From Escherichia phage vB_EcoM_phAPEC6, in the sequence record MK817115.1: a DNA stretch of 64,000 nt; one strand, given 5' to 3'. The notes beneath the pieces are model-generated. The model was not told where the DNA came from. It ran no database searches and saw only the letters and a list, made by a program, of their open reading frames with translations. Shown here one piece after another: positions 18,155-64,000 of this stretch (position 1 is its first letter; each line of letters opens with the position of its first letter). The position numbers were made by a program, and so were the translations under genes.

Positions 18155-18597
18155 TACAAATCCCCTGAACTTAAATATTCACATGCTCCCCAGTCAAGAA
18201 AGAATGGTTCAAAATTCAATTCCTTAAAGTACCACAACACAACCAAGGAATCAAGCATTTCTTGGTTAAAAATGAAACTCTGTTGGAAGTAATACTCTTC
18301 AGTACCCCACGGGCCATCAAGTACCCCGAAGTCAACAGGTGCATTTGATGTGTCAAACGTAATCTTAGTACCTGGAATATATACAAAAAAACTAGTATAT
18401 TGACTACATGAAGAGTACTGTATAGTATTGTCTTTATCCTGTCCCATAAGTAAAATATCATCAGAGTATGTCTTTATACCTGATAGATAATACTCATCAC
18501 CAAATGCACTTACTTTATCACCATAGAACCCACTTTTTATGTTATCGTGGAAGTGATGTATTCTGTGTGCTAGTTCAAGTGCACTTGCTAAACTCAT
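18154..18597 (-). CDS. FamA1 subfamily paralog
   Basis: N-term MSLASALELAH, LDGPWGTEEYYFQQSFIF. Confidence 0.65.
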   Translation of the reverse strand: MSLASALELAHRIHHFHDNIKSGFYGDKVSAFGDEYYLSGIKTYSDDILLMGQDKDNTIQYSSCSQYTSFFVYIPGTKITFDTSNAPVDFGVLDGPWGTEEYYFQQSFIFNQEMLDSLVVLWYFKELNFEPFFLDWGACEYLSSGDL

Positions 18598-19064
18598 ATA
18601 TCCTCTTTAATAACTCGTAGTAGATCCAAGTCCAAATAGAAGCTAGGACAATCTGTATTATTAAAGTACCACAGAATGACAAGCTTGTCAAGTACATCTT
18701 CCTCGTAGATAGTATTCTGCTGGAAGTAGTACTCTTCACTTCCCCAGTCATTATCCAGTACTGAATACGGAAGATGTTTCTCTGCTGCACCAGATATAAT
18801 GTCAGAATCTTGTATTAAAATATCAGCATCACGACAGAAGTACATGTAATTATCTTCCAAATTAACATCACACCCATTGAGTGTTGTTTCAGAAGAATCT
18901 AAGTTTTCTTCATACATGTGAATGTACTCACTACTGTCATCGTATCTCATTCGACAATAAGATTTACCTTCCTTGAATAGATATCCATTGAGACAATTTG
19001 CTACAATTTCTTTGCTGCATAAATCAATTAACTTCGCAATCTCTAATGCTCTTTCTAAACTCAT
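18594..19064 (-). CDS. FamA1 subfamily paralog
   Basis: N-term MSLERALEIAK, LDNDWGSEEYYFQQNTIY. Confidence 0.65.
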   Translation of the reverse strand: MSLERALEIAKLIDLCSKEIVANCLNGYLFKEGKSYCRMRYDDSSEYIHMYEENLDSSETTLNGCDVNLEDNYMYFCRDADILIQDSDIISGAAEKHLPYSVLDNDWGSEEYYFQQNTIYEEDVLDKLVILWYFNNTDCPSFYLDLDLLRVIKEDI

Positions 19065-19065
19065 T

Positions 19066-19557
19066 TTAACCCCTGTTAATACCGTTATCTACAGTTTTCT
19101 TTACGTATTTGTAATCGAAATAGAAGTTCCCAGAACCAATACTTTTAAAGTACCACATAATTATAATAACATCAAGTACTTCATTATCGTATACAGTACT
19201 TTGTTGGAAGTAATACTCTTCACTATCCCACGGACCTTCCAGTACTTCACTCGGAATTATAATGTCATCGGAATCGCTATCAGTACTGTAGATGGTATCT
19301 GTATCATTAATATAGACCATGTACTCATTATGCATATTAATGAAGCATTCATAATCATTAGGGTCGGTATCCAGTACACACGTTTCTGTATCCAGTACGC
19401 ACGTTTCTGTATCTGAGCAGTCATTATAAAGGAGGTTATCCGGTACATAATATTGAGTACTTGTGTCTTTGAAAACACCGTAAACTGAACCTTCTTTTGC
19501 CATATTCATGTACTCATGAATCTTCTTTGCTTTTTCCAATGAACTCTGTAATGTCAT
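19066..19557 (-). CDS. FamA1 subfamily paralog
   Basis: N-term MTLQSSLEKAK, LEGPWDSEEYYFQQSTVY. Confidence 0.65.
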   Translation of the reverse strand: MTLQSSLEKAKKIHEYMNMAKEGSVYGVFKDTSTQYYVPDNLLYNDCSDTETCVLDTETCVLDTDPNDYECFINMHNEYMVYINDTDTIYSTDSDSDDIIIPSEVLEGPWDSEEYYFQQSTVYDNEVLDVIIIMWYFKSIGSGNFYFDYKYVKKTVDNGINRG

Positions 19558-19566
19558 TTTATAATC

Positions 19567-19926
19567 TCATATATTGAAATAATAATTATTCGTTCTTGAT
19601 GGGGATGGATTAAATACGTTTTCTTTTTCAAATCTCTTCATTTCATTTTGCAAAGAAACCATTTCTTCAAATGTACAGGAGTACTTATTCTTATCAAACA
19701 CTAATGCAGCCTGAAATAGTTCACCATCGTCCAGTACTGTATAATCTATAAGACTCTCAGATTCATAGTCATAGTCGTCATGTGATACATGAATAAATTT
19801 AAAACAAGAATCTTTGTAATGCATATATAAACTCAACTCATGTTCCGAGTCGCCCTTAATAAGATTACAGCACAAGTCCCATCCTTTAGGTAACTTATAA
19901 TAGTACATAGAATAATCATATGTCAT
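19567..19926 (-). CDS. FamA paralog (FDKKY subfamily)
   Basis: motif GELFQAALVFDKNKYSC. Confidence 0.6.
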   Translation of the reverse strand: MTYDYSMYYYKLPKGWDLCCNLIKGDSEHELSLYMHYKDSCFKFIHVSHDDYDYESESLIDYTVLDDGELFQAALVFDKNKYSCTFEEMVSLQNEMKRFEKENVFNPSPSRTNNYYFNI

Positions 19927-20279
19927 TCTTGAATTCCTAAATTGAATTTGTATTCTTGATTAATACTTGCATTGGGTTTATGCAAAGCAGCATACTCTTT
20001 CATTTCATTTTGTATTGCAATAACTTCTTCAAATGTACACAAGTACTTCTTATCAAATACTAATGATTCTTGGAATAGTTCTGCGGTATCCATTAATGTA
20101 TAGTCCGGCATATCTTGGTGTGGATACTGTAATGAACTGTAATCAATGAATGTAAATTTACCCTGAGTGTAATGAATATACTCATTTGCACTGTGCATTA
20201 AATCACCTTTGTTTAAATTACAAAAGTACTGATAACTGTGCTTGAAAGTATGTACTGATATTAAAAAATCAAATTCCAT
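19923..20279 (-). CDS. FamA paralog (FDKKY subfamily)
   Basis: motif AELFQESLVFDKKYLC. Confidence 0.6.
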   Translation of the reverse strand: MEFDFLISVHTFKHSYQYFCNLNKGDLMHSANEYIHYTQGKFTFIDYSSLQYPHQDMPDYTLMDTAELFQESLVFDKKYLCTFEEVIAIQNEMKEYAALHKPNASINQEYKFNLGIQE

Positions 20280-20650
20280 CAGTACTCAACCTCTACATAA
20301 ATAGATTCAGGAAACTTAGTCATATAATCTTCTGGATAGTTCTGCATTACTTTGATCATTTCTGCCTGTGTAGCACGGACGTATTCAATTGGTGCTCCTG
20401 GTAAATTCCAGACAGTACTTTCCTGAAAGAATTCCTCTTCTGACAGTACTGTCAGATTTACAAAATCATTACGGTAATTTTTTGAATCATCATATGTGAA
20501 GATTTTAAAAGACCCATTTTCATATAGTACAAGAACAAAATGGGAGAATTTTTGTAATGCACCACCAAGGCTTTCCACGACCGCATGATTCAGTGTACAG
20601 ATGACCTCTTTTTTCCTCATACCGAATTGAATTCTAATTTCTTTTTTCAT
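20279..20650 (-). CDS. FamA paralog
   Basis: core motif EEEFFQESTVW. Confidence 0.6.
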   Translation of the reverse strand: MKKEIRIQFGMRKKEVICTLNHAVVESLGGALQKFSHFVLVLYENGSFKIFTYDDSKNYRNDFVNLTVLSEEEFFQESTVWNLPGAPIEYVRATQAEMIKVMQNYPEDYMTKFPESIYVEVEY

Positions 20651-20808
20651 AAAATCTCCTTCAGATTAGTACTGAATTTGTACAGAATATTAGAACTGTA
20701 TACAGCCTCTGTATCTGTATCCATAATCAAATCACCTTTGTTTAAATTACAAAAGTACTGATAACTGTGCTTAAAAGAATGTACTGATATTAAAAAATCA
20801 AATTCCAT
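20647..20808 (-). pseudogene. truncated duplicate of the 5' end of FamA gene 19923..20279
   Basis: 53-codon ORF; first ~27 aa (MEFDFLISVHSFKHSYQYFCNLNKGDL) and ~85 nt of DNA near-identical to start of 19923..20279, then diverges; no FQxS motif. Confidence 0.45.
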
Positions 20809-21185
20809 CACTCTTCCCCTAGATTGAAATGATTACAAAAATCATCTTCACCAGTACTGCACCAGATATCTATACATTCCCTGTGAATACATTTAATTCT
20901 ACGCTGTAATTCAATCATCTCTTCTAATGTACAGATGTACTTCTTATCAAATACTAATGCCGCCTGAAACAGTGCAGCATCATCAAGTACTGTATAGTCC
21001 AACATCTCGGTTGCTTTACCCCTAAACCCAGTACTAAAATCCATCAAATAAAAGTCAGCATTCCAGTACTTTAAAATCTTGTCCCTAGCGTAGTTTAAAT
21101 CACCCTTGTATAAGTTAGAGTGCGTAACTAACTCACCAGTGTACATCCATGTCCTTGCACAAAATTCATTATATTTTATTTCCAT
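20808..21185 (-). CDS. FamA paralog (FDKKY subfamily)
   Basis: motif AALFQAALVFDKKYIC; start moved to Met37 (MEIKYNEF), track ORF to 21293 reads through intergenic DNA. Confidence 0.55.
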   Translation of the reverse strand: MEIKYNEFCARTWMYTGELVTHSNLYKGDLNYARDKILKYWNADFYLMDFSTGFRGKATEMLDYTVLDDAALFQAALVFDKKYICTLEEMIELQRRIKCIHRECIDIWCSTGEDDFCNHFNLGEE

Positions 21186-21381
21186 CTTAATCTCTACTAT
21201 AATTAATAAGGTAAACTCCAATATAAGGAGCACGTTGCGGGGGCGGGGTATTTTTTGTTTCAGGAAACATGAACTGTACTCTGAAAAACACAATATAAAA
21301 CTTTATATTAAACATATACCTTAGCATGTTTTTCAGCGGAAATTTTTTTGACCCCCTGCGGCCTGTCAAAACGAAACGTCT

Positions 21382-21606
21382 CTATTTATTCAGCCTAGAA
21401 ACCTTGATTTCTTCAATCCTTTTCATTGCACAAAGCCTTCGACTCGTCCTCTCGTATATATTCAATACTCGCTGTAATGCATTATCTGTATTATCTGCAA
21501 CTGCAATCTGAACCAAATATGTATCCTTCAAAATAGAATCCATCATGAATTCAAAACCTTTCACACTAAAGCAATATGCCACTTCCGGCTCTTCAAACGT
21601 AATCAT
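21382..21606 (-). CDS. hypothetical protein
   Basis: ORF-track ORF, same strand, no family motif. Confidence 0.45.
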   Translation of the reverse strand: MITFEEPEVAYCFSVKGFEFMMDSILKDTYLVQIAVADNTDNALQRVLNIYERTSRRLCAMKRIEEIKVSRLNK

Positions 21607-21796
21607 AATTCCAATCCCCTATTCCCTCTAACCTTCTAAGATATCTTGCGTAAATTATTTCGAAATATCTGTGCAACGAAATTACGGATTGCTCATAATC
21701 ATCATTCCTGTACATTGTGCATGTCAGAAAATCATTTAACCCAAAATCTAAACTGCACTTGAACTTCTCCTTAGCAACATCTCTAAAATTATTCAT
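21593..21796 (-). CDS. hypothetical protein
   Basis: ORF-track ORF, same strand. Confidence 0.45.
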   Translation of the reverse strand: MNNFRDVAKEKFKCSLDFGLNDFLTCTMYRNDDYEQSVISLHRYFEIIYARYLRRLEGIGDWNYDYV

Positions 21797-21950
21797 AATA
21801 TGTCCTCTGTACAGCGTAGGTGTACTGTGAACTCAGCACCACTAATAGGTAATCTATATTGTAAGCACGATTTCCTCGTTGACTAGCACGGCTGGAATAA
21901 AGAATATTATCCACATATGTATTGAACTGATCTTCAAATAACTCTTTCAT
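21789..21950 (-). CDS. small hypothetical protein (53 aa)
   Basis: hand-translated ORF, no internal stops, overlaps start of downstream gene. Confidence 0.35.
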   Translation of the reverse strand: MKELFEDQFNTYVDNILYSSRASQRGNRAYNIDYLLVVLSSQYTYAVQRTYYE

Positions 21951-21978
21951 CAGCATTATACCATCACATAATCATACA

Positions 21979-22530
21979 TCATACATTAACAACTTTATCG
22001 ATGTAATCTTCTAACATATCAATATATCTGGTATTGGTTCTAACTAAAAGGTATGCAAATCCAGAGAACTCCTGTGTATAATGCTTTACAGCGTACATAC
22101 AACGAAGCTTATCATTGTCATACATTGTACTGTACTGAAACAAACTCTCGTCTGATAGCTCTAATAACGCTTGGGCTTCACTTCTCGTGAACTTCATAGG
22201 GTCATGTACTGCATCACAAAAACAAACCTGTGTCTCGCTATTGAAACCCTGTGATAGATATATACCTTCACACTCTGAACGCACCGATACTGCATTATAA
22301 CTATGTGTTGCCCCCATCATATCTGAACTCAAAACTAAAATCAACCCATTTTTATTTTTAATCAACAAATCTGACTTAAGGGATTTGATCTCCGTATGGG
22401 AAATATCACCAAATCTTCCTGGGACTTCAAACTTATCAACGTTGTATACAATCTTTTGTACTTGCTCTTTTAAACGCTTAATTGCACTTCTGTCTTTTTC
22501 TAATGTATCTAATAAACTCATTGAACTCAT
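21979..22530 (-). CDS. FamA paralog
   Basis: core motif DESLFQYSTMY; start at Met25 behind AAGGAAAG RBS (track ORF to 22602). Confidence 0.55.
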   Translation of the reverse strand: MSSMSLLDTLEKDRSAIKRLKEQVQKIVYNVDKFEVPGRFGDISHTEIKSLKSDLLIKNKNGLILVLSSDMMGATHSYNAVSVRSECEGIYLSQGFNSETQVCFCDAVHDPMKFTRSEAQALLELSDESLFQYSTMYDNDKLRCMYAVKHYTQEFSGFAYLLVRTNTRYIDMLEDYIDKVVNV

Positions 22531-57990: not shown

Positions 57991-58173
57991 TTAGTACCTG
58001 AATATAAGTAGGATAGTGTTATATAGCTGGTCATAACTACTACTATTTTCTATACTTCGTTCTATGCAGTTATTGAATCCCAGTACTGCCAAATCGTTAT
58101 CCATAGGGACTTTGTATCTGGCGTAGTGTTCAAAAATGCTGGGGAGAAATTGTGTGTAGTATTCTTTGTGCAT
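57991..58173 (-). CDS. FamC mini-protein
   Basis: N-term MHKEYY, C-term ILLIFRY. Confidence 0.55.
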   Translation of the reverse strand: MHKEYYTQFLPSIFEHYARYKVPMDNDLAVLGFNNCIERSIENSSSYDQLYNTILLIFRY

Positions 58174-58174
58174 A

Positions 58175-58360
58175 TTAGTACCTATATATTAGTAAAAGGA
58201 TGTGATACAGTACTCGATTATAGTCTTCAATATATATCGAGGATTTAGTGCACTGAATGAAGTAGTCTTTTTCGTAGTTTTTTTCTATACCCAATGGTTC
58301 TGTTGGTACAAGGTGTTGGAGATACATTGGGAGTTTCTCTATGTAGTATTCTTTATACAT
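58175..58360 (-). CDS. FamC mini-protein
   Basis: N-term MYKEYY, C-term LLLIYRY; AAGGA RBS. Confidence 0.55.
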   Translation of the reverse strand: MYKEYYIEKLPMYLQHLVPTEPLGIEKNYEKDYFIQCTKSSIYIEDYNRVLYHILLLIYRY

Positions 58361-58369
58361 ATATTATCC

Positions 58370-58567
58370 TTAGTACTGGAACGCAAGGTACAGGGTGTGG
58401 TAAAGTTGTACTTGATAATTGTTTTCATTAGCTTCTTCATTAAGTACTTGTTCAGTACATGTACGGAAGTAATCAGCTTCATATATACAGTCAATACCGC
58501 GAGGTTCATCTTCTAATAGATTTCCTTGTAGAAACTTTGGTAGTTCTTTTATGTAGAATTCTTTATA
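58370..58567 (-). CDS. FamC mini-protein
   Basis: start at Met23 (MYKEFYIKELP); track ORF to 58633. Confidence 0.5.
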   Translation of the reverse strand, partial: YKEFYIKELPKFLQGNLLEDEPRGIDCIYEADYFRTCTEQVLNEEANENNYQVQLYHTLYLAFQY

Positions 58568-59234
58568 CATAGTTTGTAATATACGTAATGAGGTGATGCA
58601 TTTTCTTATCAGTACTGATAATTTCCTGTACATGTTTTGTCAGATTGTACGCGTTTTTATAGAGTACTGGATTATCGATTACAGTACTGTACATGAATAG
58701 TTCTTCTTCCTGTAGTTCTTTGTGTTCTAGTTCTTTGAGGAATTCTACAATTGATTTAGTTTCTTCTGTACGTTGTGCTTGCCAGAAGTGCATATTCTCG
58801 TGTACTTTTTTTGCACCTATACTGTATATACCACCCATTTGGAATTGTGCTGTATTGACATCGTGGGAGGTGTTACAATTCCCGAAGAAGTATGTATTCC
58901 CGAAGTATAGCATTAAAGTGCACGGGGTATTATCCAACTGCATATGGATGATGAAGGATGCGTTCTTTAGTACCTTTGTGCTCGTATTAGTACTCAATAC
59001 TTTTAAATCAGTATTATAGATATTCATATAATGAACAGCTATATTATTTTTCTTCATGTACAATCCCAGGTTCTTTGATACGTTAACTCCATTTGTACTG
59101 GATTTTTCCTTTTTATTTCGTTTCTTTAGTACATTCGGGTGATACGTATATGCAGATGTAACTGATTCTGCCTGAATACTATTGAGGTACTTAAAGTGCT
59201 TAAGGTATTGTTTGCTGTGTGCATTAAGTTTCAT
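58563..59234 (-). CDS. FamA-like protein embedded in FamC array
   Basis: 223 aa with QEEELFMYSTVIDN (FQxS-type core with M for Q). Confidence 0.55.
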   Translation of the reverse strand: MKLNAHSKQYLKHFKYLNSIQAESVTSAYTYHPNVLKKRNKKEKSSTNGVNVSKNLGLYMKKNNIAVHYMNIYNTDLKVLSTNTSTKVLKNASFIIHMQLDNTPCTLMLYFGNTYFFGNCNTSHDVNTAQFQMGGIYSIGAKKVHENMHFWQAQRTEETKSIVEFLKELEHKELQEEELFMYSTVIDNPVLYKNAYNLTKHVQEIISTDKKMHHLITYITNYV

Positions 59235-59244
59235 TTGGTTTCCT

Positions 59245-59424
59245 TTATATAGATGCCAGGGCGAGGATTTCCCTGTAGGGATTATCTTGTGTTAGTACAG
59301 CATAAATGCAGTTATTGAGATTAATATTTTTAGTACTTTTTGTTCCTAGTTTGTAGTACTTCACGAAGGTGTCGTACATGAAACGGTCTTTTATGGTTAT
59401 ACGTTCTCTATAGAATTGTTGCAT
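59245..59424 (-). CDS. FamC-like mini-protein (59 aa)
   Basis: hand-translated; N-term MQQFY, C-term EILALASI; just below track cutoff. Confidence 0.4.
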   Translation of the reverse strand: MQQFYRERITIKDRFMYDTFVKYYKLGTKSTKNINLNNCIYAVLTQDNPYREILALASI

Positions 59425-59432
59425 AGTATTCC

Positions 59433-59615
59433 TTAAATAGCGATTAGTTTCATTACTTCTCTGTATGTGTACTTTTCGTTTTGTGCATCTCTTGTGACGA
59501 CATATAGGAAGGTGTGTTTATCTTTTTTGTTCCCGCAATTGTAGAAAATATTGAACTTATTGAAGTTGAATCTTTCGGCGTGTTGTAGTTTAGTTAAATA
59601 GAATTCTATGTTCAT
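59433..59615 (-). CDS. FamC mini-protein
   Basis: N-term MNIEFY, C-term KYTYREVMKLIAI. Confidence 0.5.
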   Translation of the reverse strand: MNIEFYLTKLQHAERFNFNKFNIFYNCGNKKDKHTFLYVVTRDAQNEKYTYREVMKLIAI

Positions 59616-59623
59616 TTTCTTCC

Positions 59624-59809
59624 TTACATTTCAATAAGTTTCAGTACTGCTCGGTACGTGTACTTAGTTGTCAGTGCTTCTTTAATAGAAATACAGAAGT
59701 AATGTTGTTTGTCTCTTATACTGCCGCGTTTGTAGTACCACACATGGGAGTTGTGACTGTACTTGTCTCTGTCGGATAGTTGTTGGTAGTAGTAGCTTAT
59801 ATGATTCAT
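59624..59809 (-). CDS. FamC mini-protein
   Basis: C-term TKYTYRAVLKLIEM, paralog of 59433..59615. Confidence 0.5.
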   Translation of the reverse strand: MNHISYYYQQLSDRDKYSHNSHVWYYKRGSIRDKQHYFCISIKEALTTKYTYRAVLKLIEM

Positions 59810-60018
59810 TATAATGTAATTAGCCTTACTATATTAAAGTACTCGGTCCCTGGTGTACCTTGTAGTATATTACGCACGACATTTTTTTGGTGCTGGATGA
59901 TTGCTGAAGGTGCGGTTCTTTTTAGTTTTTTTAAAGTACTGAATTCTTGTTTAAGTATGAACTGTACATCTTTAGGGAGAATATCTATGTAGTACTGATG
60001 AATGTTTGTAGTTTTCAT
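59809..60018 (-). CDS. FamC mini-protein (QYYID subtype)
   Basis: HQYYIDILP and RNILQGTPG; paralog of 60427..60630. Confidence 0.5.
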   Translation of the reverse strand: MKTTNIHQYYIDILPKDVQFILKQEFSTLKKLKRTAPSAIIQHQKNVVRNILQGTPGTEYFNIVRLITL

Positions 60019-60028
60019 ATAGCACCTT

Positions 60029-60223
60029 TTAGAACTTAAAGATGAGGTTCAGGATAGAGCGGTACTTAGTTTCAGGGAACTGATGTTCTATTGCATAACG
60101 TGTCGCCATCCTGAAATCGTAATTGTAATATAGATTATCCTTTCTCATAGGTGGTGCTAAAGAGAATGATAGCTGGTCTTGCTTGTGTAGTTTACTACCA
60201 TAGAAATCTTTATGATTATTCAT
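60029..60223 (-). CDS. FamC mini-protein
   Basis: N-term MNNHKDFY, C-term LNLIFKF. Confidence 0.5.
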   Translation of the reverse strand: MNNHKDFYGSKLHKQDQLSFSLAPPMRKDNLYYNYDFRMATRYAIEHQFPETKYRSILNLIFKF

Positions 60224-60425
60224 AGAAGTAGATTAGTCCTATTAAACCTGAGTACATAATATTTTTGTTATTGCATTCGATTGCTTCTAGAGTACTACGT
60301 ATACAATTATTAAAGCAATCTCTACCGAAGTGAGTATTGGTACTTACAGGTGATACACTCCTTAGAAACAATTGTTCTTCGTTGCTAAGGTATTTGGTGT
60401 AGAATTCTTTATGTTCAGTATTCAT
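60216..60425 (-). CDS. FamC mini-protein
   Basis: N-term MNTEHKEFYTKYLS, near-duplicate of 57204..57413. Confidence 0.55.
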   Translation of the reverse strand: MNTEHKEFYTKYLSNEEQLFLRSVSPVSTNTHFGRDCFNNCIRSTLEAIECNNKNIMYSGLIGLIYFYE

Positions 60426-60426
60426 A

Positions 60427-60630
60427 TTAGTACTCGATTAAAAGGGCAAGGATATAATAGTATTGCATACTTTCTGCCCCTTGTAAAGCATTTCTTATGA
60501 TATTATTCCTGTACGAGTTCAGGAGTTTAGGACAACGTTTGTAGTGTATAATAGTATTTTGTGTATACAGTAGGCTTTCTCGTAGACCTTTTGTTGGTAG
60601 TGCATCGATGTAGTACTGTTCGATATTCAT
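60427..60630 (-). CDS. FamC mini-protein (QYYID subtype)
   Basis: EQYYIDALP and RNALQGAES. Confidence 0.5.
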   Translation of the reverse strand: MNIEQYYIDALPTKGLRESLLYTQNTIIHYKRCPKLLNSYRNNIIRNALQGAESMQYYYILALLIEY

Positions 60631-60854
60631 ATAGATAGCAGTACTAAGATTTTTGATAATTGTTTATTGCTATCCCCGCAGATGTTGCTGTGTAAAATAC
60701 TCACAATGAGGGTATCAATTGCATTGTTCATCATAAGGGTGCATCCTGGACTATTATAATTTTTTAGCTCAATTAGCCACGAACTATCCGAGAGAAACTC
60801 CCCGTACTCTAGTTCATTTAGAGTATTGAGGTAGTACTTAAGAGTATTTGTCAT
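60627..60854 (-). CDS. FamC-like mini-protein (first gene of array)
   Basis: ORF-track ORF, C-term KILVLLSI; divergent point of transcription. Confidence 0.45.
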   Translation of the reverse strand: MTNTLKYYLNTLNELEYGEFLSDSSWLIELKNYNSPGCTLMMNNAIDTLIVSILHSNICGDSNKQLSKILVLLSI

Positions 60855-60899
60855 GTGTAGTTCTCCTTATATTCCTTCTATAGTACAACAGTACTGAAA

Positions 60900-60956
60900 G
60901 GATGTCAAGGGTTTTCTTTATGGGGTAAATATGATATAATGAATAAGGAGGGATTT
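60900..60956 (+). promoter_or_regulatory. promoter-like region and RBS for first RCC1-like gene
   Basis: TATAAT box then AAGGAGG RBS 5 nt before ATG; -35 not obvious; same block repeated before the two downstream paralogs. Confidence 0.4.
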
Positions 60957-62105
60957 ATGTTACCTTTTGCAAGAATGATTAAGTACGGGAATATTGCCCC
61001 TGGTGATGATGGACGTTTTAAAATATATTCCAGTGATTCCATGTATCTTCATGATACTTATACTGATAAGTTGTATGCATCTTCTGCGACGAATTGGGGT
61101 ACTGGTACAGGTGTAGCATCGAGTAAATTTATTCTTTGTGCGGAGAATGTTAAACGAGTTCTATTGGAAGATAACAGTAGTGATTGTCAATTGTACGAAG
61201 AGAAAGGTACGGGAAAAGTTTTTATCACTGGCAACACGAAGGCATTCACTGGTGTAACTGATAGAAAAACTTTGTGGACGGACTGTACTACATGGATAAC
61301 ATCAGGTGGTATTAATGTTTCTGATATAAAATACATGAGTAGTTTTTATGATATGAAGGTGAATTTGATAACAAACGATGGTACATTGTATTGTTGTGGA
61401 GCTAACAATATATCGAACATATCATCATTTGGTGATGGCACAAACATTAATTCTTTTAACACATTCAAAAGAGTAGATACTATAACTTCGGTTAAAAAGG
61501 CAGTTGGTAACATTTATTTGCGAGAAGATAATACTTTATGGGGTTGTGGTTTTAACTATTACTACCAGTTGGGTACGGGTAATCAAACTTCTATTACTGG
61601 GGTGACGATGATTTCTTCGGATGTTATAGATTTTAATGTAAGTTATCAGAGTACATTTTTTATCAAATCGGATAATAATTTGTACGCTTGTGGTAAACAG
61701 TTCGGTGCACAATATGGGAACGAATTTGGTACAGGTGGTACTTCTACATCTACAGATATACAATATAAAACTCCGACATTATTGAGTTCAGGAGTTTATA
61801 CTCTATATACTTGTGTTGGTAACATGGCATCACATATTGTCAAAGCAGATGAAGTTCTATATGCTTCTGGAACGAATGGGTTTGGGCAATTAGGTGTTGG
61901 TAATAATAATAATCAGTACTCCTATACTCCTTCTTATACTTCTTTTAATAGTTCGTGTGATTTGGTACGCAGTCCATCTGGATCACTTATACTTACGGAT
62001 ACTGGAAAATTATATTATTGTGGCATTGCAATAGTAGTAATGGGTGGTATTTCTGGACAGAACGTTCTTAATTATACAGAAGTAGATATGTCATTTATAC
62101 AATGA
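60957..62105 (+). CDS. RCC1-like repeat (beta-propeller) protein, FamD copy 1
   Basis: repeated LWGCGFNYYYQLGTGN, LYASGTNGFGQLGVGN blocks; start at MLPFARMIKYGN behind AAGGAGG (track ORF begins 18 nt upstream). Confidence 0.6.
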   Translation: MLPFARMIKYGNIAPGDDGRFKIYSSDSMYLHDTYTDKLYASSATNWGTGTGVASSKFILCAENVKRVLLEDNSSDCQLYEEKGTGKVFITGNTKAFTGVTDRKTLWTDCTTWITSGGINVSDIKYMSSFYDMKVNLITNDGTLYCCGANNISNISSFGDGTNINSFNTFKRVDTITSVKKAVGNIYLREDNTLWGCGFNYYYQLGTGNQTSITGVTMISSDVIDFNVSYQSTFFIKSDNNLYACGKQFGAQYGNEFGTGGTSTSTDIQYKTPTLLSSGVYTLYTCVGNMASHIVKADEVLYASGTNGFGQLGVGNNNNQYSYTPSYTSFNSSCDLVRSPSGSLILTDTGKLYYCGIAIVVMGGISGQNVLNYTEVDMSFIQ

Positions 62106-62113
62106 ATTAATAT

Positions 62114-62142
62114 GCCAGTACTTGATACTGGCTTTTCTTTTT
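62114..62142 (+). terminator. rho-independent terminator
   Basis: GCCAGTA-CTTGA-TACTGGC hairpin followed by TTTTCTTTTT. Confidence 0.6.
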
Positions 62143-62177
62143 GTATTAAATATAGTATAATGAATAAAGGAGGAATT

Positions 62178-63320
62178 ATGTTACCTTTTGCAAGAATGGT
62201 TAAGTACGGGAATATTGCACCTGCACAAATCGGTAGATATAAAATATACAGTTCATCTTCTTCACTATTTTTATTGGATACCCAAAAACACAATTTGTAC
62301 AGTACATCGAACATTAATTATACTAGTGGTACAGGTAATGTTGAGCCTAAATTTGTGTTAAGTGCAACTAATGTTAAAAGATTATTACTATCTGATAATA
62401 GTTGTGCAATGCAAATATATGAAGATATGAATGGGCGTGCAGCGATGTGTGGCACAAGAACTGCATATAGTGGGGTTGCAAATGATAATGTACTGGTATG
62501 GACGGATTGCACTACATGGTTCACAAATGTAGGGTTGAATGTATCAGATATTCAGTACATGTCTGGTTTTTATAATCTGAAACTAAACATAGTTATGAAT
62601 AATGGTGATTTGTGGTGTAGTGGGAAAAACAACACTACTACTATGTCATCATTTGGTAATAGCACAAATATCGATTCATTCAATCAGTTTACCAAAATAA
62701 CAACAATATCAAATGTTATTAAAGCCACCGGGAATATATACTTATGTGCAGATAATACTTTATGGGGATGTGGTTTTAACTCTTACTATCAGTTAGGGAC
62801 AGGTAATCAAACATCCAGTATTAATTTGATTATGATGGCTTCTAATGTTATCGACTGTAATGTTGGTCTTCAAAATACTTATTACTTGACTAATAATAAA
62901 GAACTTTATGGATGTGGTACACAATTTGGTACAACTTACGGGAATGAATTTGGAACAGGAAGGCAGGGAACATCAATACAATATAAGACTCCTACTATAA
63001 TTTTCACAAATGCAGATGGTCTGGCTGTTTGTGTCGGTAATATGTCTACTCATGTTATTCAATATGATAAAGTTTTTAGTTCTGGTAATAATGCCCTTGC
63101 ACAGTTGGGTGTAGGCAACCGTGACAATGTGTACACATATACACAATCATTTGATAATTTCAAAATGGATTCTTCTATAGTACGTGCAAACGTTGGAACA
63201 TTGATAATGACAGCGGACAATAAGTTATATTACAGTGGGAGAAATGATGTTGTTATGGGTGGAACAAGCACACAATACACGACGGTTTTCAGTGAAGTTA
63301 ATATGTCATTTATACAATGA
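62178..63320 (+). CDS. RCC1-like repeat protein, FamD copy 2
   Basis: same N-terminus MLPFARMVKYGN and C-terminus EVNMSFIQ as copy 1; LWGCGFNSYYQLGTGN; start behind AAGGAGG. Confidence 0.6.
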   Translation: MLPFARMVKYGNIAPAQIGRYKIYSSSSSLFLLDTQKHNLYSTSNINYTSGTGNVEPKFVLSATNVKRLLLSDNSCAMQIYEDMNGRAAMCGTRTAYSGVANDNVLVWTDCTTWFTNVGLNVSDIQYMSGFYNLKLNIVMNNGDLWCSGKNNTTTMSSFGNSTNIDSFNQFTKITTISNVIKATGNIYLCADNTLWGCGFNSYYQLGTGNQTSSINLIMMASNVIDCNVGLQNTYYLTNNKELYGCGTQFGTTYGNEFGTGRQGTSIQYKTPTIIFTNADGLAVCVGNMSTHVIQYDKVFSSGNNALAQLGVGNRDNVYTYTQSFDNFKMDSSIVRANVGTLIMTADNKLYYSGRNDVVMGGTSTQYTTVFSEVNMSFIQ

Positions 63321-63326
63321 ATTAAT

Positions 63327-63357
63327 GCCAGTACTTGATACTGGCTTTTCTTTTTTG
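63327..63357 (+). terminator. rho-independent terminator
   Basis: identical GCCAGTACTTGATACTGGC hairpin plus T-run. Confidence 0.6.
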
Positions 63358-63392
63358 TATTAAATATAGTATAATGAATAAAGGAGGGAATT

Positions 63393-64000
63393 ATGTTACC
63401 TTTTGCAAGAATGGTTAAGTACGGAAATGAAGCACCAGAACCAAAACCTCTATTTAAAAATAGATTACAAGCAAATTATAATACTCGTTTTTATTTGCAT
63501 GTTAATGGTGACTTGTACTGGTATGGTTCATCTTCATTTGGACAAGGTGGTAATGGTTCATTACAATCATCCACCGTATGGACCCGTGTGAATAATAATA
63601 TTGAACGTTACTGGGGTGGTGTTCTTGGTTCCATTGCCATTAAGAATGATGGAACTATTTGGTTCACAGGTGCTAGTATAGTAATGCCACAAATCGGAAC
63701 AAATACAAATGGGGTTTGGATTGATGTAACCCAGTACTTCACTGATTTTGGTGTCAGTGCTGATGATATTGATGGTATTGCTGTTGGACAGAATTTGCGT
63801 GTATTTTTGAAAAATGGAAAATGGTTCTACTGTGGTGCTGGCGAGGGTGGTGTATTTGGTAACGCATCAACAGCTAATGTCACATCGTTCAGATACAGCA
63901 CTATAGAAAATGTTAAAAGTTATGGCTGTTCTTTGCTCAGTACTGGGTTAGTTCTTGATGATGGTTCCTATTGGTATGCAGGAAATACTGTTGCTCCTGG
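63393..64000 (+). CDS. RCC1-like repeat protein, FamD copy 3 (partial, continues beyond window)
   Basis: ATG behind AAGGAGGG; frame open to window end on hand translation; N-terminus MLPFARMVKYGN; SFGQGGNG and CGAGEGGVFG glycine-rich repeats; not in ORF track (no stop). Confidence 0.55.
   Translation, partial: MLPFARMVKYGNEAPEPKPLFKNRLQANYNTRFYLHVNGDLYWYGSSSFGQGGNGSLQSSTVWTRVNNNIERYWGGVLGSIAIKNDGTIWFTGASIVMPQIGTNTNGVWIDVTQYFTDFGVSADDIDGIAVGQNLRVFLKNGKWFYCGAGEGGVFGNASTANVTSFRYSTIENVKSYGCSLLSTGLVLDDGSYWYAGNTVAP

What the first reader, a model, noticed from the sequence alone, without database searches (positions are those of the whole stretch)
20647..20808. Truncated duplicate of a FamA gene start, evidence of ongoing array turnover
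A 53-codon ORF between two full-length FamA genes repeats about 85 nt (27 codons) of the 5' end of gene 19923..20279 almost exactly, then diverges and ends without the FQxS core. Its last codons supply the RBS and overlapping stop/start for the downstream gene. It looks like a remnant of unequal crossing-over within the array.
Basis: seen in the sequence. Interest (0 to 1): 0.45.

Follow-up and report, generated by a model that had tools for sequence, protein, structure and literature searches.

The report
Chimeric junction ORF beside a mobile phage gene
The 53-codon ORF is a recombination scar in a jumbo E. coli phage: the first 27 codons of one array gene are fused to the last codons of an unrelated gene that arrived together with an accessory gene, and the resulting 85-nt repeats let that 529-nt block be gained and lost among related phages.

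Summary
Window 20726-20810 repeats 20197-20281 at 82/85 nt, and this is the only near-identical direct repeat in the 31-kb gene array.

The ORF (20647-20808, minus strand) is not a decayed FamA duplicate. It is a chimera.
- Codons 1-27 come from FamA gene D (19923-20279).
- The tail is the 3' end of a different 192-198-aa gene. That gene is intact only in phage A4 and in one metagenome contig, where it lies directly upstream of the homologue of gene X (20279-20650).
- The left junction is an 8-nt microhomology (GATTTGAT). The right junction is the stop/start overlap TGATGGA.
- Phage 121Q keeps a 74-codon form. The window form has lost a further 63 nt in frame.

About 10 Asteriusvirus genomes carry the 529-nt unit and about 20 lack exactly it. 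Carriers and non-carriers are interleaved on flank trees, which require at least 5-6 gains or losses. Turkey3 is the fEgEco12 backbone plus a unit 100% identical to the window's, with the exchange points inside the repeat.

This is a well-resolved example of known phage mosaicism. The closest analogue is PeSL cassette shuffling in T4-type phages. The peptide probably has no domain function, though it may act as a translational bridge to X. Interest is modest.

The parts
20647..20808 (-). Chimeric junction ORF, 53 codons: FamA-D 5' end fused to the 3' end of a 364-like gene
   Evidence: Identical protein annotated as hypothetical in G17, slurp01 and BF17, and found in two metagenome contigs.
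20726..20810 (-). Repeat copy B: TGA stop of gene U plus the first 82 nt of a D-type FamA gene
20197..20281 (-). Repeat copy A: TGA stop of gene X plus the first 82 nt of the intact FamA gene D
20726..20733 (-). Left junction, 8-nt microhomology GATTTGAT shared by D (GATTTAAT here, GATTTGAT in other lineages) and the 364-like gene
20647..20725 (-). Tail derived from the 3' end of a 364-like gene. It carries the RBS and the stop/start overlap for gene X.
   Evidence: blastn of A4 to window 20272-20691 (94.8%) and 20678-20733 (82%); alignment
20682..20692 (-). Scar (TAATATTCTGT) of a secondary 63-nt in-frame deletion between imperfect 11-nt repeats. 121Q and A4 keep the 63 nt.
20656..20661 (-). 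Shine-Dalgarno AAGGAG for gene X, inside the last codons of the chimeric ORF
20279..20650 (-). Gene X (123 aa, phrog_13866, has the FFQES core): an accessory gene found only in the 10 long-form phages and A4
19923..20279 (-). Gene D: intact FamA gene (118 aa, phrog_15629) whose 5' end was duplicated
20808..21185 (-). Gene U: FamA gene (125 aa, phrog_15629) upstream. Its TGA overlaps the ATG of the chimeric ORF, or of D in short-form genomes.
20197..20725 (.). The 529-nt presence/absence unit (one of the equivalent registers): tail, gene X and one repeat copy
   Evidence: (872 versus 1401 nt matched)

Best explanation
The ORF is a recombination scar, not a gene copy in decay.

Context. The window comes from an Asteriusvirus-type jumbo coliphage (121Q/PBECO4/G17 group). 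It carries a long minus-strand array of small paralogous genes that are mostly joined by overlapping stop and start codons.

Step 1 (shown by homology; direction inferred). A segment made of the last ~47 codons of a 192-198-aa gene (A4_364-like) plus the complete accessory gene X became joined into FamA gene D. The left junction lies at codon 27 of D, in an 8-nt microhomology (GATTTGAT). The right junction lies at the X-stop/next-start overlap TGATGGA, which D's own start also has. This left D intact and duplicated its first 82 nt plus the preceding TGA. The product was a 74-codon in-frame fusion ORF, as still seen in 121Q.

Step 2 (shown). A 63-nt in-frame deletion between TAATGTTCTGT and TAATATTCTGT shortened the ORF to the 53 codons seen here.

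Step 3 (shown comparatively; mechanism inferred). The two 85-nt repeats now act as homology arms. Homologous recombination between them deletes the 529-nt unit, and recombination with a co-infecting relative installs it. The unit therefore moves between phage backbones. Each event re-homogenises the repeats, which is why they are 96% identical.

The peptide keeps only beta-strands 1-2 of the FamA fold and cannot form that domain. Its most likely role is passive. It uses D's translation-initiation region and ends on X's ATGA, so ribosomes are passed from gene U to gene X. This last point is inferred, not shown.
For: Identity of the genome and the locus: (35 Asteriusvirus records match).

Chimeric nature: translations and the nucleotide alignment show three forms.
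- 121Q_366: MEFDF...NKGDL|IMDTDTEVVYSSNVLCKEFQNSKMLELLCIADCNILYKFSTNLKEIL
- A4_364 C-terminus: ...FQQDL|IMDVDSAATYSSNVLCKEFQNSKILELLYIADCNILYKFCTHLKEIL
- window form: the same minus 21 codons
By tblastn the full-length donor-type gene is found only in A4. It also occurs as P0010 in a Logan contig, where it again sits directly upstream of an X homologue.

Gene X: at E<=1e-10 it occurs only in the 10 long-form phages and A4. X in the donor contexts is 95.7% (A4) and 97.6% (Logan contig) identical to the window's X, whereas the surrounding A4 array genes are 72-87% identical or unalignable.

Short forms lack exactly 529 nt and read U-TGATG-D.

Recombination inside the repeat:
- SD15 (short form) differs from the window's D at only 2 of 357 nt, and both are the positions and bases that distinguish copy B from copy A.
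- Turkey3 matches fEgEco12 at 95-100% per 100-nt window (mostly 99-100%) on both flanks, where the window is 80-90%. Its unit is 100% identical to the window's. Its copy A is window-type for nt 1-80 and then backbone-type. Its copy B is backbone-type.
- Fitch parsimony on the flank trees needs 5-6 changes among 20 genomes.

Loss of the fold: the AF2 model of D (pLDDT 85.5) places the FQ core in helix 65-74, and the chimera keeps only residues 1-27. It matches only positions 1-39 of 121 in phrog_15629.

Coupling context: 33 of 42 neighbouring gene pairs in the array overlap, 18 of them by 1 or 4 nt. No promoter or terminator signal above chance was found within the unit.
Against: The direction of step 1 is not proven. 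An alternative route to the same fusion is a deletion from a larger ancestral arrangement (D'-...-364-like-X-D), and no sampled genome shows either intermediate. For each closely related long/short pair, deletion and insertion cannot be told apart. The ORF is intact in all long-form genomes, and both rearrangements are in frame. This could mean selection on the peptide or on read-through, rather than a neutral scar. No expression data were available.
Confidence: 0.82

Rival explanations
1. One reading: a tandem FamA duplicate made by unequal homologous crossing-over between FamA paralogues and later truncated, with a tail that is just diverged FamA sequence.
For: The 5' 85 nt are a true duplicate of D's start. 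The array is full of paralogues that could misalign.
Against: The tail aligns to the 3' end of A4_364 and P0010, not to any FamA gene. That gene has no PHROG hit and no profile similarity to FamA beyond 12 columns around FQ. The duplicated block contains a gene of another family (X). No relative has a full-length FamA gene at this position.
Confidence: 0.04
2. The same chimera was formed by deletion rather than insertion. An ancestor carried D'...364-like-X-D, and one microhomology-mediated deletion fused D' codon 27 to the 364-like tail. Short forms then arose by recombination between the D' remnant and D.
For: This route needs only one illegitimate event. The junction microhomology fits a deletion equally well. 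The window form shows that such deletions do happen at this spot (the 63-nt loss).
Against: No sampled genome has X followed by D together with an intact 364-like gene. In A4, X is followed by a different gene (A4_366) and lies about 3 kb further down the array. The most divergent lineages (ph0011, CMSTMSU, UE-S1, Ecwhy1) are all short form.
Confidence: 0.15
3. The 53-aa product, or translation through it, is functional and selected. It could be a leader ORF needed for translational coupling of X, or a micro-protein.
For: The ORF is open in every long-form genome. Both rearrangements (the fusion and the 63-nt deletion) are in frame; roughly 1 in 9 would be expected by chance. Its stop overlaps X's ATG and its start overlaps U's stop. 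Overlapping junctions dominate the array.
Against: X has its own strong SD (AAGGAG, 5-nt spacer). The copy-B part in 121Q and CRJP21 carries 6 amino-acid changes in 9 codons, including Y to P, which argues against constraint on the peptide. The tail is 100% identical among six of the genomes, so it gives no test. The FamA fold cannot form.
Confidence: 0.2
4. Assembly artefact: a mis-join or duplication produced by the assembler.
For: The GenBank record of Sharanji is linearised inside copy B.
Against: The same structure occurs in about 10 independently sequenced phages and in two metagenome contigs, with allelic variants of it (121Q, CRJP21, Turkey3).
Confidence: 0.01

Closest known systems
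PeSL-mediated modular shuffling and mini-circles in T4-type phages RB49/phi1 (Arbiol et al. 2010, PMC2839356; Comeau et al. 2014, PMC4122927)
   Same: A single small ORFan-type gene is flanked by short direct repeats. Close relatives differ by exactly the repeat-bounded unit. Gain and loss are attributed to the phage's general homologous recombination, reversibly, and no integrase is involved.
   Different: There the repeats are regulatory cassettes (early promoter plus stem-loop terminator) in intergenic DNA. Here they are a duplicated coding 5' end plus a stop/start overlap, with no promoter or terminator signal above chance. Mini-circles were shown there by inverse PCR; here they are only inferred.
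Mosaic junctions from illegitimate recombination in phage genomes (the Hendrix/Hatfull model; the homeologous alternative is tested in PMC2327257)
   Same: There are abrupt homology breakpoints at or near gene boundaries, a few bases of microhomology, and a leftover chimeric ORF at the joint.
   Different: This case lies inside a tandem paralogue array of a jumbo lytic phage. Both parents of the chimera and a less-deleted intermediate (121Q) can still be identified. My knowledge of the classical model is from memory; only PMC2327257 was seen in the search list, and it was not read.
Poxvirus 'gene accordions' and multigene-family turnover (from my own knowledge, not checked here)
   Same: Arrays of paralogous accessory genes expand and contract by recombination between repeats.
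   Different: No copy-number amplification of one gene is seen here. The unit carries a different family member, and it is gained or lost once per genome.
Integron gene cassettes
   Same: A promoterless single-gene unit is inserted into an expressed array and can be excised.
   Different: No attC-like site or integrase is involved. The exchange points lie in 85 nt of ordinary homology.

Membership tests
FamA protein family (phrog_15629) | Full-length match to the ~121-position family profile | tested here: not met
   The chimera matches only profile positions 1-39 (E=1.2e-9). D and U match positions 1-121 and 2-121.
FamA protein family (phrog_15629) | ELFQxxLVFDKK core helix followed by the C-terminal helix and strand | tested here: not met
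   There is no FQ in the 53 aa. In the AF2 model of D the core is helix 65-74, and the chimera ends its FamA part at residue 27.
Chimeric recombination-junction ORF (mosaic scar) | Two parts, each homologous to a different intact gene | tested here: met
   The 5' part matches D (82/85 nt). The 3' part matches A4_364 and P0010.
Chimeric recombination-junction ORF (mosaic scar) | Abrupt breakpoint with short microhomology | tested here: met
   GATTTGAT at 20726-20733; TGATGGA at the right-hand junction.
Chimeric recombination-junction ORF (mosaic scar) | Close relatives lack the joint and show the uninterrupted parental arrangement | tested here: met
   About 20 genomes read U-TGATG-D with exactly 529 nt fewer.
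PeSL-type mobile cassette of T4-type phages | Unit bounded by direct repeats, with an indel between close relatives exactly at the repeats | tested here: met
PeSL-type mobile cassette of T4-type phages | The repeats are a sigma-70-like early promoter plus a stem-loop terminator | tested here: not met
   The repeats are coding sequence. The promoter and terminator scan gave counts at chance level and no site in the repeats that fits.
PeSL-type mobile cassette of T4-type phages | Circular excision product detectable during infection | not testable with these tools
   Requires inverse PCR or read-level data.
Product of unequal homologous crossing-over between tandem paralogues | The hybrid or duplicate consists only of sequence from the misaligned paralogues | tested here: not met
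   The tail and gene X are not FamA sequence. The tail's parent gene lies elsewhere in the array, in A4.

The most novel reading that the evidence does not exclude
The duplicated 85-nt gene start works as a portable homology arm. It turns 'junction ORF plus gene X' into a recombination-mobilised mini-cassette that excises (possibly as a 529-nt circle) and re-integrates into any relative that has a D-type gene. This would be a coding-sequence analogue of PeSL mini-circles. In this reading the junction ORF is kept in frame because expression of X in the polycistronic array depends on ribosomes delivered through it.
Probability: 0.3. Interest if true: 0.5.

Novelty: new member of a known kind. 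Interest (0 to 1): 0.3.

Why it matters
This case shows, at nucleotide resolution, how an accessory gene enters and leaves the large paralogous gene array of Rak2/121Q-like jumbo phages. One microhomology-mediated event creates a fusion ORF and a pair of repeats. Ordinary homologous recombination then spreads or removes the unit across backbones that differ by 10-20% in the neighbouring genes. It also warns annotators that the 53-aa and 74-aa 'hypothetical proteins' in G17, slurp01, BF17, Turkey3, CRJP21 and 121Q are junction remnants, not family members. It does not reveal a new kind of system.

Tried and rejected
- Pfam scan of D, X, U, A4_364 and four other array genes: nothing significant.
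- PHROGs: only families of unknown function.
- Homologue search with D: 9 proteins, all phage or metagenome hypotheticals.
- Profile comparison of A4_364 with the FamA/X alignment: only 12 columns around FQ, E=0.12.
- Promoter and terminator scan: at chance level.
- IMG/VR scan for the X-end/D-start junction: only 121Q itself. JGI metagenome scan for the tail/X-start junction: nothing.
- Literature: no description of this gene family or of this locus. The Sharanji paper and the jumbo-phage comparative paper do not discuss it.
- The source of the clustered substitution patch in copy B of 121Q and CRJP21 was sought in all fetched loci and the window, and was not found.
- Rejected: a simple truncated FamA duplicate, and an assembly artefact.

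Full report
**What the window is.** megablast of window 19000-22000 and 19900-21300 finds 35 phage records. All are Escherichia or Salmonella jumbo phages, and those with a genus-level taxonomy belong to Asteriusvirus (121Q, PBECO4, G17, slurp01, Sharanji and others), at 85-100% identity. From about 800 to 30000 every sizeable ORF is on the minus strand. 33 of 42 neighbouring pairs overlap, 18 of them by exactly 1 or 4 nt (TGATG or ATGA). About 45 of these genes share a [ST]EE-x-[YF]FQ-x-S-like core.

**Checking the observation.** The 85-nt direct repeat is real: 20197-20281 versus 20726-20810, 82/85 identical, 529 nt apart.
- An 80-nt probe from copy A finds just these two sites with at most 3 mismatches, and none of 100 shuffles gave a match.
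- It is the only near-identical direct repeat in the 31-kb array. All other paralogue similarity is 60-85%.
- The ORF (ATG 20806-20808 to TGA 20647-20649, minus strand) encodes MEFDFLISVHSFKHSYQYFCNLNKGDL-IMDTDTEAVYSSNILYKFSTNLKEIL.
- Its first 27 residues equal those of gene D (19923-20279) apart from S for T at position 11. Beyond that point the pairwise alignment collapses.
- Its stop overlaps the ATG of gene X (20279-20650) as ATGA, with AAGGAG 5 nt upstream. Its own ATG overlaps the TGA of gene U (20808-21185).

One qualification: the downstream neighbour X belongs to phrog_13866, whereas D and U belong to phrog_15629.

**What the tail is.** The decisive result came from relatives.
- In 121Q the ORF at this position is 74 codons: MEFDF...NKGDL-IMDTDTEVVYSSNVLCKEFQNSKMLELLCIADCNILYKFSTNLKEIL.
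- In phage A4 the X homologue (A4_365) is preceded by a 192-aa gene (A4_364) ending ...AFQQDL-IMDVDSAATYSSNVLCKEFQNSKILELLYIADCNILYKFCTHLKEIL.
- At nucleotide level, A4 aligns to window 20272-20691 (94.8%) and 20678-20733 (82%), and to nothing else nearby.
- The three-way alignment shows the left junction. D reads GGTGATTTAATgcac, A4_364 reads AGGATTTGATTATGGAT, and the chimera reads GGTGATTTGATTATGGAT. This is an 8-nt microhomology, exact in lineages whose D reads GATTTGAT.
- The right boundary of the shared segment is the X stop/next start TGATGGA. This string is common to the A4_365/366 junction and to the U/D junction.
- Relative to 121Q and A4, the window form lacks 63 nt (21 codons) between TAATGTTCTGT and TAATATTCTGT.

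By tblastn a full-length 364-like gene exists only in A4. The large protein database adds one cluster (P0010, 198 aa, 97% identical), and its contig again shows a 182-aa gene, the 198-aa gene and then X. A4_364 has no PHROG or Pfam match, and it resembles FamA only in 12 columns around FQ.

The ORF is therefore a fusion of D's first 27 codons with the last ~26 codons (47 in 121Q) of an unrelated gene that travels with X.

**Where X normally sits.** A4's array is syntenic with the window. The conserved promoter-side intergenic region and the block 19559-17707 both align. In A4, however, genes A4_350-353 replace U, the chimera, X, D and gene 19567-19926, and X lies about 3 kb further down.
- X is 95.7% (A4) and 97.6% (Logan contig) identical to the window's X. 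This is as close as the cassette alleles are to each other (96.5-97.3%), while neighbouring A4 genes are 72-87% identical or unalignable.
- At E<=1e-10, X occurs only in the ten long-form phages and A4. It is an accessory gene that always comes either with the intact 364-like gene or with the chimera.

**Presence/absence polymorphism.** Ten records match window 19900-21300 end to end. This includes 121Q, which has 61 extra nt. About twenty match it over 872 nt, that is, minus exactly 529 nt. In these short forms the sequence runs U...TGATGGAATTT...GATTTAATgcac...D.
- NJ trees of the 640 nt on either side interleave long and short forms, and Fitch parsimony needs 6 (left flank) or 5 (right flank) changes among 20 genomes.
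- SD15 (short) has 0/640 differences from the window in the left flank. fEgEco12 (short) has 0/640 differences from Turkey3 (long).

**Evidence that exchange happens inside the repeat.** In the window, G17, BF17 and slurp01, copy A reads ...ACATACTTTCAAG... and copy B reads ...ACATTCTTTTAAG....
- SD15 (short) differs from the window's D at only 2 of 357 nt, and both are the copy-B bases at those two positions. PBECO4 carries the same two copy-B bases plus two further differences elsewhere in D. JP4 and UB carry the copy-A bases. This is what reciprocal crossovers at different points within the repeat predict.
- Turkey3 is the clearest case. Per 100-nt window it matches fEgEco12 at 95-100% (mostly 99-100%) on both flanks, where the window is only 80-90% identical. 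Its 529-nt unit is 100% identical to the window's.
- Turkey3's copy A is window-type for nt 1-80 and then backbone-type. Its copy B is backbone-type.
- WPEC3, a short form with a Turkey3-like D, carries the window-type first 80 nt. This looks like a footprint of a former cassette.

Direction (deletion or insertion) cannot be decided for any single pair. The unit has clearly crossed between backbones, with both exchange points inside about 85 nt of homology.

**Mechanistic reading.**
- *Shown:* the two parental homologies, the microhomologies, the in-frame secondary deletion, the exact 529-nt polymorphism, and the recombinant repeat patterns.
- *Inferred:* a single founding illegitimate event created the fusion and the duplication. 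This was either a template switch or double microhomology joining that inserted tail plus X into D, or a deletion from a larger arrangement that has not been sampled.
- *Inferred:* the phage's general recombination then removes or installs the unit and keeps the repeats nearly identical. On this view the 96% identity dates the last exchange, not the founding event.
- Copy B in 121Q and CRJP21 carries a patch of 11-13 substitutions in ~25 nt, giving 6 amino-acid changes in 9 codons. It may be the original allele or a conversion tract from an unsampled paralogue. Its source was not found.

**Does the peptide do anything?** The AF2 model of D (pLDDT 85.5, pTM 0.81) is a five-stranded sheet followed by two helices and a terminal strand, with the FQ core in helix 65-74.
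- The chimera retains only strands 1-2, so it cannot form that domain.
- The ORF is nevertheless open in every long-form genome, and both rearrangements are in frame. It starts on U's stop and ends on X's start.
- In an array built on overlapping junctions, with no internal promoter or terminator signal, the most economical role is a translational bridge. I rate selection for this at about 0.2-0.3. The non-conservative patch in 121Q/CRJP21 and X's own strong SD argue against a need for the peptide itself.

**Comparison with known systems.** The closest described phenomenon is PeSL-mediated modular shuffling in T4-type phages. There, ORFan genes flanked by repeated promoter/stem-loop cassettes are deleted or inserted between close relatives, and they form mini-circles (PMC2839356). 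The logic here is the same, but the repeats are a duplicated coding 5' end and the PeSL-defining regulatory motifs are absent. The founding event fits the classical picture of phage mosaicism by illegitimate recombination. It is not a FamA family member, not an integron cassette, and not a product of unequal crossing-over between FamA paralogues.

**Verdict.** The feature is a chimeric junction ORF that marks a repeat-flanked, recombination-mobilised accessory-gene unit. It is a new, unusually well-resolved member of a known kind, and interest is modest.

Noticed in passing
window 800-30000, minus strand: About 45 of ~60 consecutive genes share a core [ST]EE-x-[YF]FQ-x-S-[LT]-[VI]-x-[DN] about 45-50 residues from the C-terminus (for example SEEYYFQNSTVY, TEEGYFQGSTVY). 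This superficially resembles the TEV protease site ENLYFQ(S/G). There is no Pfam hit, the PHROGs are of unknown function, and the AF2 fold has no PDB match. This is a very large paralogous superfamily of unknown role in Rak2/121Q-like jumbo phages.
   Followed up: partly
L020 (UE-S1) 1224-1952, equivalent to window 19923-21185 minus the unit: In phage UE-S1, genes U and D are annotated as, and translate as, one in-frame 242-aa fusion (...NHFNLGERVMEFDF...). The U stop is lost. This is either a real fusion or a sequencing indel.
   Followed up: partly
L009 (Sharanji OR545507) end of record, equivalent to window 20772: The Sharanji GenBank record is linearised inside repeat copy B, so the junction ORF is split and unannotated there. 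The window is 100% identical to Sharanji over 19900-20772.
   Followed up: no
L002 (121Q) 2390-2471 and L007 (CRJP21) 2030-2111, equivalent to window 20750-20780: Copy B in 121Q and CRJP21 carries an identical cluster of 11-13 substitutions within ~25 nt (ACGGTCAAGGGTGCACCTCAGTACC). It looks like a gene-conversion tract, and its source was not found in any fetched sequence. CRJP21 combines this patch with the 63-nt-deleted tail, so the long forms are themselves recombinants.
   Followed up: partly
window 21188-21356; L022 (A4) 18209-18378: The intergenic region upstream of gene U is 94.7% conserved between the window and A4, although the genes on its downstream side are completely different (A4_350-353 versus U/X/D). 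It is probably a promoter/regulatory module that anchors block replacement. It contains the inverted repeat 21272-21290 / 21327-21345.
   Followed up: no
window 19080-19530 (gene 19066-19557): In Turkey3, fEgEco12, WPEC3 and ph0011 this 163-aa gene is replaced by two shorter genes. Identity to the window drops to 40-50% over exactly this gene and recovers on both sides. This is another gene-sized replacement in the same array.
   Followed up: no
window 58000-64000: The plus-strand genes 60939-62105 and 62112-63320 lie in a region annotated in relatives as RCC1-like 'regulator of chromosome condensation' or DNA condensation proteins. The region is highly mosaic: at most 70% of the query is covered in any relative, in 4-8 pieces.
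   Followed up: no
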